64,000 bases of DNA, taken from the NCBI RefSeq assembly GCF_030013595.1, contig NZ_CP122768.1. One strand, 5' to 3'. Source of the DNA: Escherichia coli. Its GTDB lineage: Bacteria > Pseudomonadota > Gammaproteobacteria > Enterobacterales > Enterobacteriaceae. This document shows, in pieces, positions 24,001-26,226 of the stretch; positions within the stretch are counted from its first letter, which is position 1, and each line of letters begins with the position of its first letter. The position numbers are program-made.

Positions 24001-26226
24001 CTGGCACGGGCGATCCTCGATAAAGCAGGTGATATGCAGCTACCGCAGGTCAACGGTTTCCGCACATTGCGCGGGCTGGGTGTGAGCGGTGAAGCTGAAG
24101 GTCATGCGGTATTGCTGGGCAATCAGGCGCTGTTAAATGACCAGCAAGTTGATACTAAAGCGATTGAGGCAGATATTTCAGCTCAGGCATCGCAAGGGGC
24201 AACGCCTGTGCTGCTGGCGGTTGACGGGAAAGCGGTGGCCTTGCTGGCAGTACGCGATCCGTTGCGTAGTGATAGCGTGGCGGCGCTGCAACGTCTGCAT
24301 AAAGCGGGATATCGTCTGGTGATGTTGACCGGGGATAACCCAACCACCGCCAATGCGATCGCCAAAGAAGCAGGGATTGATGAGGTGATCGCCGGGGTGC
24401 TGCCGGACGGTAAAGCCGAAGCGATCAAACGTCTGCAGAGTGAAGGACGTCAGGTGGCAATGGTGGGCGACGGCATTAACGACGCGCCAGCGCTGGCTCA
24501 GGCGGATGTCGGAATTGCGATGGGTGGCGGCAGTGATGTTGCCATTGAAACCGCAGCGATTACCCTGATGCGCCATAGCCTGATGGGTGTTGCGGATGCG
24601 CTCGCGATTTCCCGCGCAACGCTGCGCAATATGAAGCAGAACCTGCTCGGTGCGTTTATCTACAACAGTATCGGTATTCCGGTCGCCGCCGGTATTTTGT
24701 GGCCGTTCACTGGAACACTGCTTAACCCGGTGGTTGCCGGAGCGGCAATGGCGCTCTCGTCGATTACCGTAGTGAGTAACGCTAACCGGTTGCTGCGGTT
24801 TAAACCGAAAGAGTGATTGGTATTTACTTAATGCGTTTGTGAGATCCAGTTCTTGTTGCGCTCCTTTTATGAGTCATGCCATATAAAGTGACTGGCGCAG
24901 GGAGCGCGCAGGGGGCGGCCAATCGCCGCCGCCCCCTGCACCCCCGGGCTCTGGCGAACAAAATCGCCGCTGCGCGGTACCCTCAGCTTATCCCTTGCGG
25001 CTACCGGGTCGGGCGCGAGGTAACATCCCTGTAAAACGCGCCCTCAGCCCACATCCATGTGGGCTGCCCCGGCCTTCAGGGAACGCCTCGGCGATTTTGA
25101 CGCCACCAACACCGGTGCAGTCTTTCGTTTCAAAGCAAAAACAATTTTTCGATCATATTTAAGCTACCACTGAACAAGCCTCATAACTCCATTTGCGCCA
25201 TCCCTCCCCGCGCGCTAGCATGATATTTCACAAAGGGAGGTCGTATGGATCTGTTGTACCGGGTAAAAACGCTTTGGGCCGCGCTGCGCGGTAATCATTA
25301 CACCTGGCCTGCCATCGATATCACCCTCCCCGGCAATCGCCATTTTCATCTGATTGGCAGTATTCATATGGGCAGCCACGATATGGCTCCCCTGCCCACC
25401 CGTTTGCTCAAAAAGCTCAAAAACGCCGATGCGCTGATCGTCGAGGCGGATGTTTCCACCAGCGATACGCCTTTTGCTAATTTGCCTGCCTGCGAGGCGC
25501 TGGAAGAGCGCATTAGCGAGGAGCAACTCCAAAACCTGCAGCACATTAGCCAGGAGATGGGCATTTCTACCTCACTCTTTTCTACCCAACCGCTGTGGCA
25601 AATCGCGATGGTTCTTCAGGCGACGCAGGCACAAAAACTGGGGCTGCGGGCAGAATACGGTATCGATTACCAGCTATTGCAGGCGGCGAAGCAACAACAT
25701 AAACCCGTGATTGAACTGGAAGGGGCTGAAAACCAGATTGCCATGTTGCTCCAGCTCCCTGACAACGGACTGGCACTGCTGGACGATACGCTGACCCACT
25801 GGCACACCAATGCACGGTTGCTGCAACAAATGATGAGCTGGTGGCTGAATGCGCCGCCGCAAAATAATGAAATAACGCTGCCTAATACGTTCAGTCAGTC
25901 GCTGTACGATGTGCTGATGCATCAGCGAAATCTCGCCTGGCGGGACAAATTATGCGCCATGCCGCCGGGGCGCTATGTGGTCGCAGTCGGTGCACTACAC
26001 CTGTATGGAGAAGGGAATTTGCCGCAGATGTTGCGTTAAAAAAATGGCCAATATCGCTATTGGCCCGTCAAAGAGGAATTTCATATTTTTATTATTATGC
26101 CGTCACTTTAAGCGACGGTGTAACTCGATTGTCGCTCAATCTCACCATCCTGCCAATACTCTTAGGCAAGATGACTCTTTTTTTGGACCGCCATCAGGCG
26201 TATGCTTGCTTCGTTTTTTTGTTTAA

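What the first reader, a model, noticed from the sequence alone, without database searches (positions are those of the whole stretch)
24817..25244. copA-ybaP spacer holds GC-rich palindromic repeats and no ORF; I recall a small HTH gene (ybaQ) here in K-12
The 428-bp spacer has no ORF of 60 aa or more on either strand. It contains a ~155-bp element bounded by imperfect inverted repeats (ctggcgaacaaaatcgccg / cggcgattttgacgcca) with an internal palindrome, plus a separate GC hairpin. From memory, K-12 carries ybaQ between ybaP and copA. If so, this strain has a deletion or replacement by a miniature repeat element. I am not certain of the K-12 arrangement.
Basis: partly seen in the sequence, partly recalled or inferred. 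Interest (0 to 1): 0.4.

Follow-up and report, generated by a model that had tools for sequence, protein, structure and literature searches.

The report
Structured repeat replaces ybaQ antitoxin cassette
In this E. coli strain the gap between copA and ybaP has lost the ybaQ toxin-antitoxin cassette and instead holds one non-coding copy of a hairpin-rich repeat found in nearly all E. coli; this is an ordinary strain polymorphism, but the repeat's core looks like a widespread, possibly CsrA-binding, mobile RNA/DNA motif.

Summary
The 428-bp copA-ybaP spacer has no ORF of 60 aa or more and no trace of ybaQ. It holds the described 155-bp domain closed by inverted repeats, an internal palindrome and a GC hairpin.

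K-12 has a 794-bp spacer with ybaQ (HigA-type antitoxin) plus three REPs. B2-type strains carry the full toxin + ybaQ pair. In the window, 360 allele-specific bases (24813-25172) replace that cassette. About 320 of them are one copy of a dispersed intergenic repeat.

- **Distribution:** 5425 of 5426 complete E. coli genomes carry the repeat, with a median of 3-4 places. Only 346 (6.4%) have it at this locus.
- **Other loci:** at aqpZ-lysO, dusC-yohP and yegH-asmA the repeat occurs in either orientation, with internal deletions, or swapped for another TA pair.
- **Core structure:** the minus strand folds into two hairpins with loops AUGGAU and AGGGAU inside a long stem. This matches Rfam TwoAYGGAY below threshold (31.5 vs 43 bits; CsrB clan) and has the architecture of Yersinia YPAL MITEs. 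An exact-pattern scan found over 120 such elements across gamma-proteobacteria.

It is most likely a decaying MITE-like element. CsrA binding is plausible but untested. Its identity with "RSA" is unverified.

The parts
22312..24816 (+). copA (834 aa Cu+ P-type ATPase). Homology with K-12 ends at 24812/24813, in its last sense codon.
   Evidence: ORF list; RefSeq annotation of the 100% identical strain Ecol_316; blastn against K-12.
24813..25172 (.). Allele-specific 360 bp. It replaces 727 bp of K-12 (three REPs + ybaQ + the ybaQ-proximal promoter region).
   Evidence: blastn and MAFFT against K-12 and SF-173. Only 346 of 5426 genomes hold this allele.
24832..25150 (-). Full extent (~320 bp) of the dispersed repeat, including weakly conserved ends. 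The strand given is the one that carries the GGA loops.
   Evidence: Alignments of 14 enterobacterial copies with flanks.
24851..25121 (-). Well conserved 271-bp core of the repeat, 90-97% identical to the copies at aqpZ-lysO and dusC-yohP.
   Evidence: megablast, blastn, alignment.
24951..25105 (-). It encloses four hairpins.
   Evidence: the repeat finder I2; MFE fold; RNAalifold with compensatory changes in P1.
25045..25066 (-). Hairpin H1: CAGCCCACAUGGAUGUGGGCUG, loop AUGGAU.
   Evidence: I8; unique in the window; invariant in all 14 copies.
25011..25043 (-). Hairpin H2 within stem P3: GGGCGCG-UUUUACAGGGAUGUUACCU-CGCGCCC. UUACAGGGAUGU matches 11 of 12 positions of the CsrA SELEX consensus RUACARGGAUGU (consensus quoted from memory).
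   Evidence: Sequence; pattern search; sub-threshold TwoAYGGAY alignment.
24908..24939 (.). Perfect 12-bp GC hairpin (module 2). Its stem covaries between subfamilies (GGGGGCGGC/GCCGCCCCC vs GGGGGAGGA/TCCTCCCCC vs CAGGGTGG/CCACCCTG).
   Evidence: I4; alignments.
24858..24907 (-). Hairpin module 3, GCGCUCC...GGAGCGC. On the minus strand its 3' arm reads AAAGGAGCGC (Shine-Dalgarno-like). The stem covaries to CGUUCAC...GUGAACG in the diverged subfamily, which loses the SD-like motif.
   Evidence: MFE fold; RNAalifold pairs at columns 250-254/293-297.
25173..25244 (+). ybaP-proximal 72 bp shared by all three alleles. This is presumed to be the ybaP promoter and leader.
   Evidence: blastn against K-12 and SF-173.
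25245..26039 (+). ybaP (TraB/GumN family, 264 aa).

Best explanation
The spacer holds one non-coding copy (~320 bp, window ~24832-25150) of a dispersed, hairpin-rich enterobacterial intergenic repeat. It sits in a variable slot that other E. coli strains fill with a HigB-like toxin + ybaQ (HigA) cassette, or with ybaQ alone plus REPs.

**Structure.** The repeat has three stem-loop modules. The largest is a 155-bp domain closed by a long stem. This domain carries two adjacent hairpins whose loops read AUGGAU and AGGGAU on the minus strand. That is the architecture of the TwoAYGGAY RNA motif and of the Yersinia YPAL/RU-2 miniature insertion sequences.

**Most likely nature.** I think it is a MITE-like element: selfish, formerly mobile, and now decaying. 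It lands repeatedly in a few intergenic slots next to gene ends, in either orientation, displacing what was there.

**Role at this locus.** It probably has no dedicated function here. At most its hairpins act passively on transcripts that read into it, for example as a 3' structure on copA mRNA, the role usually ascribed to the REPs in K-12.

**What is shown:** identity as a dispersed repeat, absence of ybaQ, the conserved covarying structure, the allele polymorphism and the decay by deletion.

**What is inferred:** mobility by transposition, target preference, and any effect at the RNA level.
For: **Dispersed repeat.**
- 5425 of 5426 genomes carry copies, with a median of 4 places by megablast and 3 by blastn of the P1 domain. 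Only 346 have it at copA-ybaP.

**Three alleles of the slot.**
- K-12 has ybaQ + REPs.
- SF-173 has toxin + ybaQ.
- The window has the element, with no TA remnant.

**Same behaviour at other loci.**
- aqpZ-lysO, dusC-yohP and yegH-asmA carry the element in opposite orientations in different strains.
- yegH-asmA in strain 112 carries an unrelated RelE/ParE + HTH pair instead.
- The B allele at aqpZ resembles the dusC-type copy rather than the A allele at the same locus. This points to copying between loci.

**Decay.** Internal deletions between short direct repeats remove the twin hairpins in three cases:
- EC0026B at yegH-asmA;
- E302 at aqpZ-lysO;
- MS20673 at aqpZ-lysO.

**Non-coding.**
- The copies differ by 1-2-nt indels.
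- No ORF is conserved.
- 12 of 70 predicted pairs keep pairing through changes on both sides.

**Superfamily.**
- An exact scan for the two loop motifs hit more than 120 stretches in species-representative genomes, against about 13 expected by my estimate.
- Many genomes hold multiple near-identical copies, for example Pseudomonas citronellolis and Shewanella electrodiphila.
- All 29 instances in genomes with GC below 56% are intergenic, with no strand bias relative to neighbouring genes: 7 co-oriented vs 8 opposite.

**YPAL.**
- The published YPAL/RU-2 sequence has the same twin hairpins inside an internal long stem, and it aligns to the Arenimonas-type element at z = 7.7 (PMC2759123 Table 1b).
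- YPALs are described as mobile, with variable target duplications next to dyad symmetries, and as co-transcribed with upstream genes (PMC2229807, summarising De Gregorio et al. 2006).
Against: - No empty-versus-filled site with otherwise identical flanks was found in E. coli. Target-site duplication, the exact termini and transposition itself are therefore not shown.
- No transposase partner is known.
- At every locus the whole intergenic stretch differs between alleles. Allele exchange by homologous recombination through the flanking genes could explain the pattern without recent transposition.
- Sequence similarity of the E. coli element to YPAL itself is not significant (z = 2.2). The link runs through architecture and through weak similarity to Salinicola and Arenimonas elements (z = 5.3 and 5.9 with the searched motifs masked).
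- The loops and hairpins H1/H2 are invariant in all 14 enterobacterial copies, and the core is retained from E. albertii to E. coli. This could mean selection for a function rather than mere selfish persistence.
Confidence: 0.6

Rival explanations
1. The element is a functional CsrA-binding RNA module. When the minus (GGA) strand is transcribed, the two hairpins present a pair of high-affinity sites to one CsrA dimer. Each copy would then either put its host transcript under CsrA control or act as a small sponge, like a miniature CsrB.
For: - H2 reads UUACAGGGAUGU, 11 of 12 positions of the CsrA SELEX consensus (consensus quoted from memory). H1 reads ACAUGGAUGU. The GGA triplets sit in hairpin loops about 28 nt apart.
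- Every E. coli copy gives a TwoAYGGAY hit on this strand, though below threshold (28-31.5 bits).
- Rfam places TwoAYGGAY in the same clan as CsrB, CL00106.
- Gardner and Eldai proposed TwoAYGGAY as a CsrA-binding RNA (PMC4333381).
- The loops are invariant while the stems covary across dozens of genera.
- The GGA strand folds better than its complement: -144.8 vs -135.4 kcal/mol, and -89.9 vs -69.1 for the alignment consensus. Across 73 elements it shows fewer A.C mismatches, 17 vs 50.
Against: - No binding or expression data exist. The loops were fixed by my own search pattern, so their conservation outside the Enterobacteriaceae is ascertainment.
- No promoter-like site is predicted on either strand here. 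In the window the GGA strand is antisense to both neighbouring genes.
- There is no orientation bias relative to flanking genes (7 vs 8).
- The G.U evidence within H1 is neutral (8 vs 5), and some Xanthomonadales types favour the other strand.
- The twin hairpins are deleted in many strains.
- The E. coli CsrA CLIP-seq tables list dusC, asmA and ybjE as unbound. K-12 is a poor test case, however.
Confidence: 0.22
2. The element works as a passive RNA 3'-end structure for copA. Transcripts reading out of copA on the plus strand fold into the GC-rich hairpins, which block 3' exonucleases or attenuate read-through into ybaP. That is the role usually ascribed to the three REPs in K-12.
For: - The element begins about 16 bp after the copA stop codon (about 35 bp for its well conserved core). 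No intrinsic terminator is predicted in between.
- The plus strand also folds strongly, at -135.4 kcal/mol with z = -5.5.
- K-12 has a three-REP BIME in the same position.
- At three of four E. coli loci the element lies just downstream of a gene end, twice between convergent genes.
- YPALs are reported to be co-transcribed with upstream genes and to influence transcript stability (PMC2229807).
Against: - Nothing specific to this element is needed for that role. Any strong hairpin would do.
- It does not explain the invariant loop sequences.
- No expression data exist.
- This reading is compatible with the best explanation rather than exclusive of it.
Confidence: 0.25
3. The element is an independent small-RNA or small-protein gene.
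For: - On the minus strand the element ends with AAAGGAGCGCAAC. In most copies an AUG follows 5-10 nt later.
- At the dusC copy a 27-aa ORF follows.
Against: - The ORFs after the AUG are 2-27 aa and unrelated between loci. The window copy has no AUG at all.
- The diverged subfamily loses the SD-like motif while keeping the hairpin.
- No promoter or terminator is predicted.
- No Rfam family reaches its threshold.
Confidence: 0.04

Closest known systems
YPAL / RU-2 miniature insertion sequences of Yersinia (De Gregorio et al. 2006, as summarised in PMC2229807; sequence in PMC2759123)
   Same: - Both are intergenic, non-AT-rich and multi-copy.
- The main domain is similar in size, 168 bp vs 155 bp.
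- The long inverted repeat is internal rather than terminal.
- Two adjacent hairpins with GGA loops lie inside it (CCAAGGAUGG and UACAUGGAUGUA in YPAL).
- Both are found near gene ends and dyad symmetries.
- The GGA strand folds better than its complement.
   Different: - Direct sequence similarity to the E. coli element is not significant (z = 2.2).
- The E. coli unit carries two extra 3' hairpin modules and two extra hairpins inside the domain.
- E. coli has only 1-10 copies per genome, against tens to about 100 in Y. pestis.
- Target-site duplications were not seen here.
TwoAYGGAY RNA motif (Rfam RF01731, clan CL00106 with CsrB)
   Same: - A long closing stem encloses two adjacent hairpins separated by AG.
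- The first loop, AUGGAU, fits AYGGAY.
- The hit is on the same strand in all four E. coli loci.
- Bona fide members (Lachnospiraceae L064, 93.8 bits; Psychromonas L089, 71.4 bits) were retrieved by the same loop pattern.
   Different: - The score is 28-31.5 bits against a gathering score of 43.
- The second loop is AGGGAU or AAGGAC (ARGGAY, not AYGGAY).
- Most gamma-proteobacterial elements found by the pattern are not recognised by the Rfam model.
RSA repeats of E. coli (Bachellier et al.; also called BEE95)
   Same: - A palindromic enterobacterial intergenic repeat of 150-152 bp (PMC5172473 Table 1; title cited in PMC3751351). The size matches the 155-bp P1 domain.
   Different: - The consensus could not be obtained, so no alignment was made.
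- K-12 is annotated with 6 RSA copies, whereas this family gives only about 3 places in K-12.
REP/BIME and ERIC (IRU) elements
   Same: - Both are intergenic palindromic repeats of enterobacteria that sit after gene ends.
- K-12 has three REPs in this very spacer.
   Different: - The sequences are unrelated.
- REPs are single imperfect palindromes of about 35 bp.
- ERIC is a 127-bp single long hairpin with TA ends.
CsrB/CsrC/RsmZ sponge RNAs
   Same: - GGA motifs are presented in hairpin loops.
- CsrB belongs to the same Rfam clan as TwoAYGGAY.
   Different: - They are single-copy genes with their own BarA/UvrY-dependent promoter and a terminator.
- They carry 9-22 sites rather than two.
- They have no closing stem and are not dispersed.

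Membership tests
TwoAYGGAY RNA (RF01731) | Score at or above the Rfam gathering threshold (43 bits). | tested here: not met
   31.5 bits, E = 0.018 over 2 kb. The other E. coli copies score 28.4-31.5 bits.
TwoAYGGAY RNA (RF01731) | Two terminal loops with AYGGAY inside a closing P1 stem. | tested here: inconclusive
   Loop 1 is AUGGAU and fits. Loop 2 is AGGGAU, or AAGGAC in the dusC type, which has a purine where Y is required. The long P1 stem is present.
YPAL/RU-2 MITE | Sequence homology to the YPAL consensus. | tested here: not met
   The local alignment score is 35 against shuffles of 25.6 +/- 4.2 (z = 2.2). An indirect chain exists: E. coli vs Arenimonas z = 5.9 and Arenimonas vs YPAL z = 7.7.
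YPAL/RU-2 MITE | Internal long inverted repeat enclosing a structured core; intergenic; multi-copy. | tested here: met
YPAL/RU-2 MITE | Target-site duplication of 3-26 bp and filled/empty site pairs. | tested here: inconclusive
   No empty site was found among 60 sampled aqpZ-lysO alleles. At copA-ybaP the alternative alleles carry other DNA. The Pseudocitrobacter-vs-window comparison is too diverged to read junctions.
RSA repeat | Match to the RSA consensus or annotated positions in K-12. | not testable with these tools
   The consensus is not in the held literature. The RefSeq K-12 record shows no repeat features at the copies.
RSA repeat | About 150-152 bp, 6 copies in K-12. | tested here: inconclusive
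   The domain size fits (155 bp). The copy number in K-12 is about 3 by blastn, against 6 in PMC5172473.
CsrA-binding RNA | GGA in hairpin loops matching RUACARGGAUGU, at least two sites within reach of one dimer. | tested here: met
   H2 matches 11 of 12 positions and H1 matches 9 of 12. Both GGA triplets lie in predicted loops about 28 nt apart. The consensus and the spacing rule are quoted from memory.
CsrA-binding RNA | Transcription of the GGA strand and physical binding by CsrA. | not testable with these tools
   No promoter is predicted. The CLIP-seq supplement gives no positive signal for neighbouring genes in K-12.
Type II toxin-antitoxin locus (HigB-like / YbaQ) | Presence of antitoxin and/or toxin coding sequence. 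| tested here: not met
   tblastn of both proteins against the window gives no hit in the spacer, and none with an E-value below 0.6 anywhere.

The most novel reading that the evidence does not exclude
The E. coli repeat, the Yersinia YPAL MITEs, the Rfam TwoAYGGAY motif and the multi-copy elements found here in many other genera may form one superfamily of mobile elements. The genera include Shewanella, Salinicola, Arenimonas, Pseudoxanthomonas, Stenotrophomonas, Marinobacter, Acinetobacter, Pseudomonas citronellolis and Lachnospiraceae. The conserved cargo of this superfamily would be a ready-made twin CsrA/RsmA binding site. Each insertion into a transcribed spacer could then wire a new transcript into the Csr/Rsm regulon or add sponge capacity. 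That would be a transposable post-transcriptional regulatory module.
Probability: 0.2. Interest if true: 0.7.

Novelty: new member of a known kind. Interest (0 to 1): 0.4.

Why it matters
For this locus the result is mainly annotation hygiene:
- The missing ybaQ is a real strain polymorphism, not an assembly or gene-calling error.
- The spacer should be labelled as a repeat element rather than searched for genes.

It also documents that a few E. coli intergenic slots cycle between toxin-antitoxin cassettes, REPs and this element.

The wider point is a possible link between three things that are filed separately: an old class of enterobacterial and Yersinia miniature insertion sequences, an orphan Rfam motif, and the CsrA/RsmA recognition hairpin. 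If the link holds, it gives a concrete, testable idea of how a global post-transcriptional regulon could gain targets through mobile DNA.

Tried and rejected
- **Rfam.** At permissive thresholds over the region, and at gathering thresholds over the whole window, only the sub-threshold TwoAYGGAY hit falls on the element.
- **Promoter and terminator scan of 24700-25350.** Nothing was found on either strand. An independent sRNA gene is therefore unsupported.
- **TA remnants.** tblastn for YbaQ and its partner toxin gave none.
- **RSA/BEE95 consensus.** Literature searches found only size and copy number, and the De Gregorio 2006 YPAL paper is not held. One wrong DOI was fetched by mistake.
- **CsrA CLIP-seq supplement.** It gave no positive signal.
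- **Strand assignment from G.U vs A.C.**
  - The overall trend favours the GGA strand.
  - It is neutral within H1.
  - It is reversed in some Xanthomonadales, so it was not used as proof.
  - In one search one sequence (L091) was given in the wrong orientation, which slightly weakens the complement-strand energy quoted.
- **Termini of the Pseudomonas citronellolis element.** The repeated unit is longer than 440 bp and composite with REP-like modules, so no termini were found.
- **Covariance model across the superfamily.** This was abandoned because MAFFT could not put the outer stems of the different types in register.
- **Second, diverged element type.** The type seen next to the Pseudocitrobacter copy is absent from E. 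coli.
- **Relatedness of the two TA cassettes.** The cassettes that alternate with the element at copA-ybaP and at yegH-asmA are unrelated.
- **Chance palindrome.** Rejected by the shuffles and by the 5425-genome distribution.
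Full report
**Where the window comes from and what flanks the finding**

The window is E. coli. The spacer and its flanks are 100% identical to strain Ecol_316. The local gene order is:
- glsA (minus strand, 21117-22049)
- copA (plus, 22312-24816)
- the 428-bp spacer (24817-25244)
- ybaP (plus, 25245-26039)
- ybaK (plus)
- ushA (minus)

This is the K-12 order read in reverse.

**Checking the observation**

Every element of the description is present at the stated coordinates.
- The longest ORFs contained in the spacer are 55, 52 and 45 aa.
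- The quoted inverted repeats lie at 24951-24969 and 25089-25105 and enclose 155 bp.
- The internal palindrome is 25045-25066. It is unique in the window, and no shuffle gave a match.
- The GC hairpin is 24908-24939, with perfect 12-nt arms.
- Either strand of the 274-nt core folds about five standard deviations better than dinucleotide shuffles.

**Comparison with K-12 and other E. coli**

K-12 MG1655 has ybaQ (b0483) between ybaP and copA in a 794-bp spacer. RefSeq annotates ybaQ in other E. coli records as a HigA-family antitoxin. The window aligns to K-12 up to 24812 (the last sense codon of copA) and again from about 25163-25173. In between, 360 window bases stand in for 727 K-12 bases, which consist of three REPs, ybaQ and its proximal upstream region.

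A third allele, in strain SF-173, has a RelE/ParE-family toxin gene directly upstream of ybaQ. That is a complete toxin-antitoxin pair. Its junctions with the window allele are similar.

ybaQ with K-12-like flanks is present in at least 3564 of 5426 complete genomes. By the spread listing, ybaQ with other flanks is present in roughly 1300 more. The window-type spacer is present in 346 genomes, nearly all at 99% identity or more.

tblastn with YbaQ and with the toxin finds no remnant in the window.

**The inserted DNA is a dispersed repeat**

Megablast of the spacer finds positions 35-305 (window 24851-25121) in 5425 of 5426 genomes, at other loci, with a median of 4 places per genome. blastn with the 155-bp domain alone gives a median of 3 and a range of 1-10.

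Copies were retrieved from four places:
- between aqpZ and lysO (K-12 and many others)
- between dusC and yohP
- between yegH and asmA, as a diverged subfamily
- in Pseudocitrobacter faecalis, between mdlB and glnK

The Pseudocitrobacter site corresponds to window ~60540-60662, where the window has no copy.

Aligning 14 enterobacterial copies with their flanks shows that homology continues weakly for about 25 nt beyond the megablast core on each side. The unit is therefore about 320 bp, and it accounts for almost all of the 360 allele-specific bases.

**Anatomy**

Read on the minus strand, the unit has four parts:
1. An AT-rich, weakly conserved lead-in.
2. A 155-nt domain closed by the long stem P1 (GGCGUCAAAAUCGCCG / CGGCGAUUUUGUUCGCC). 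Inside it are four hairpins:
   - a small hairpin;
   - H1 (CAGCCCACAUGGAUGUGGGCUG, loop AUGGAU);
   - H2, nested in stem P3 (GGGCGCG-UUUUACAGGGAUGUUACCU-CGCGCCC, loop AGGGAU);
   - a fourth hairpin.
3. A perfect 12-bp GC hairpin.
4. A hairpin GCGCUCC...GGAGCGC, whose 3' arm reads AAAGGAGCGC.

RNAalifold on the 14 copies predicts 70 pairs. Twelve of them keep pairing through changes on both sides. The changes fall in:
- P1;
- the inner stems;
- the GC hairpin, which takes the forms GGGGGCGGC/GCCGCCCCC, GGGGGAGGA/TCCTCCCCC and CAGGGTGG/CCACCCTG;
- the last hairpin, which goes from GCGCUCC/GGAGCGC to CGUUCAC/GUGAACG.

The copies also differ by 1-2-nt indels, and no ORF is shared. The element is therefore non-coding, and its secondary structure is what is conserved.

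**Behaviour in the E. coli population**

At every other locus examined the element is polymorphic in the same way as at copA-ybaP.

- **Orientation.** It occurs in opposite orientations in different strains at three loci:
  - aqpZ-lysO: K-12 versus AR_0119 and E69;
  - dusC-yohP: FDAARGOS_1265 and E69 versus SCPM-O-B-8794;
  - yegH-asmA: ST131 versus SCPM.
- **Not in-situ inversion.** The entire spacer differs between the alleles, with breakpoints at the upstream stop codon and about 70-95 bp before the downstream start. The inverted aqpZ copy carries the substitutions typical of the dusC copy.
- **Swap with a TA pair.** At yegH-asmA one strain has a different RelE/ParE + HTH pair in place of the element. 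That pair is unrelated in sequence to the copA-ybaP pair.
- **Decay.** Internal deletions between short direct repeats have removed the twin hairpins in three cases:
  - the common yegH-asmA allele;
  - the E302 aqpZ-lysO allele (414-bp spacer);
  - the MS20673 aqpZ-lysO allele (320-bp spacer).
- **Age.** E. albertii carries the K-12-type aqpZ copy, so the element is old at that locus.

Taken together, this looks like a small family of selfish elements. They have repeatedly entered a few permissive spacers next to gene ends and are slowly decaying there. I did not find a clean empty site, so termini, target duplications and transposition itself remain inferred.

**The twin-hairpin core and its relatives**

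Rfam gives a single hit on the element: TwoAYGGAY (RF01731) on the minus strand, at 31.5 bits against a gathering score of 43. The other three E. coli loci give the same sub-threshold hit on the same strand. The alignment shows the same topology: a long closing stem and two adjacent hairpins separated by AG.

I then scanned one genome per GTDB species for the two loop motifs with free stems (ACATGGATGT N4-12 AG N5-15 ACARGGAYGT).

The hits are multi-copy elements in these taxa:
- Shewanella
- Parashewanella
- Psychromonas
- Salinicola
- Marinobacter
- Alcanivorax
- Acinetobacter
- Pseudomonas citronellolis (17 or more near-identical copies)
- Arenimonas
- Pseudoxanthomonas
- Stenotrophomonas
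- several uncultured gamma-proteobacteria
- Lachnospiraceae

Nearly all of them have a long closing stem.

Among 61 non-redundant hits, I examined the three positions just outside the fixed 10-mer of H1. They are Watson-Crick in 60, 60 and 56 cases, with all four pair types, where shuffled partners give about 20. The Rfam model recognises only the Lachnospiraceae and Psychromonas examples above threshold. The family is therefore much wider than the curated one.

The published 168-nt Yersinia YPAL/RU-2 element (PMC2759123, Table 1b) has the same design. An internal long stem encloses CCGCGCCAAGGAUGGCGCGG and GAGCCUACAUGGAUGUAUUUACGGCG. It aligns to the Arenimonas-type element at z = 7.7.

The E. 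coli element is not significantly similar to YPAL directly (z = 2.2). It is weakly similar to the Salinicola and Arenimonas elements once the searched 10-mers are masked (z = 5.3 and 5.9).

YPALs are described as mobile, with internal inverted repeats and target duplications of 3-26 bp. They are also described as inserting at or next to dyad symmetries and as being co-transcribed with upstream genes (PMC2229807).

**Does it work as RNA, and with CsrA?**

Points in favour:
- H2 matches 11 of 12 positions of the CsrA SELEX consensus RUACARGGAUGU (quoted from my own knowledge), and H1 matches 9 of 12.
- Both GGA triplets lie in predicted loops about 28 nt apart. That suits one CsrA dimer (again from my own knowledge).
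- Rfam puts TwoAYGGAY in clan CL00106 with CsrB.
- Gardner and Eldai proposed TwoAYGGAY as a CsrA-binding RNA (PMC4333381).
- The GGA strand folds better than its complement, both in single sequences and in the alignment consensus (-89.9 vs -69.1 kcal/mol). One row was misoriented.
- Across 73 elements the GGA strand has 17 one-by-one A.C mismatches, against 50 on the other strand.

Points against:
- The loops were fixed by my search pattern.
- G.U counts within H1 are neutral.
- Some Xanthomonadales types favour the other strand.
- No promoter or terminator is predicted here.
- In the window the GGA strand is antisense to both neighbouring genes.
- Orientation relative to flanking genes is unbiased, 7 vs 8. 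All 29 instances in genomes with GC below 56% are intergenic.
- The hairpins are dispensable in many strains.
- A K-12 CLIP-seq table lists the neighbouring genes as unbound.

I therefore rate CsrA binding as plausible but unproven (about 0.2). A passive effect of the hairpins on copA read-through is about equally plausible and is compatible with a selfish origin.

**Comparison with what is known, and novelty**

The finding itself is an ordinary presence/absence polymorphism of a small TA cassette, combined with an intergenic palindromic repeat of a kind long known in enterobacteria.
- The old name RSA (150-152 bp, also called BEE95) may apply. I could not obtain its consensus, and the K-12 copy number does not match: about 3 here against 6 annotated (PMC5172473).
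- Membership in TwoAYGGAY fails the curated threshold.
- Membership in YPAL fails a direct sequence test.
- In both cases the architecture is shared.

I file the element as a new member of a known kind, the structured MITE-like intergenic repeats. What may be new is the link between the E. coli repeat, YPAL, TwoAYGGAY and the many gamma-proteobacterial elements found here, with a twin CsrA-type site as their common core. That link rests on computation only.

Noticed in passing
L003/L006/L090 (aqpZ-lysO), L007/L066/L091 (dusC-yohP), L132/L065 (yegH-asmA): At three other E. coli loci the same repeat sits in opposite orientations in different strains. The whole spacer differs between the alleles, so these are not in-situ inversions. 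The inverted aqpZ copy resembles the dusC-type copy.
   Followed up: partly
L130 1038-1656 (strain 112, yegH-asmA spacer): A RelE/ParE toxin + HTH antitoxin pair occupies the slot that holds the repeat in other strains. This is a second locus where a TA cassette and the repeat are alternative alleles. The pair is unrelated in sequence to the copA-ybaP pair.
   Followed up: partly
L131 (EC0026B yegH-asmA), L134 (MS20673) and L135 (E302) aqpZ-lysO: Three independent internal deletions between short direct repeats (TACCCGAT, CCGGGG, TCGG) remove the twin-hairpin core of the repeat.
   Followed up: yes
L036 1868-2420 vs window ~60540-60662 (mdlB-glnK spacer): Pseudocitrobacter faecalis has two elements here, in opposite orientations. 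One is the E. coli type. The other is a more diverged twin-hairpin type (GUCCGCCAUGGAUGGCGGAC ... ACAGGACGU) that is absent from E. coli. The window has a short, empty spacer at this site.
   Followed up: partly
window 24799-24815 and 25118-25134: A 17-nt inverted repeat, 82% complementary, joins the last codons of copA (TTTAAACCGAAAGAGTG) to the far end of the element (CAGTCTTTCGTTTCAAA). It brackets the whole element. It may be chance or a trace of a split dyad-symmetry target.
   Followed up: no
minus strand, window 24858-24867 and downstream; L007 1918-2001: The element ends with a Shine-Dalgarno-like AAAGGAGCGC that is sequestered in a hairpin. In most copies an AUG follows 5-10 nt later and opens tiny unrelated ORFs of 2-27 aa. 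The window copy has no AUG.
   Followed up: partly
window 26038-26121 (-): The sroB/ChiX small RNA lies between ybaP and ybaK, as in K-12 (81.1 bits).
   Followed up: no
window 31800-31877 (-), 39800-39864 (-), 56498-56594 (-): Other Rfam matches above threshold are naRNA4 (a REP-derived RNA), the dnaX frameshift element and the small SRP RNA.
   Followed up: no
L113-L129 (Pseudomonas citronellolis LMG 18378), L019-L024 (Shewanella electrodiphila): These genomes hold many near-identical copies per genome of much longer repeated units, over 440 bp in P. citronellolis. The units embed the twin-hairpin domain together with REP-like modules. Their boundaries were not found.
   Followed up: partly
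L035 (MAG contig JAFAEO010000008.1): The contig joins the copA side of the window allele to the flank of the dusC-type copy, and it ends in another partial copy. It is probably a chimeric assembly across repeat copies, so it was not used as evidence.
   Followed up: partly
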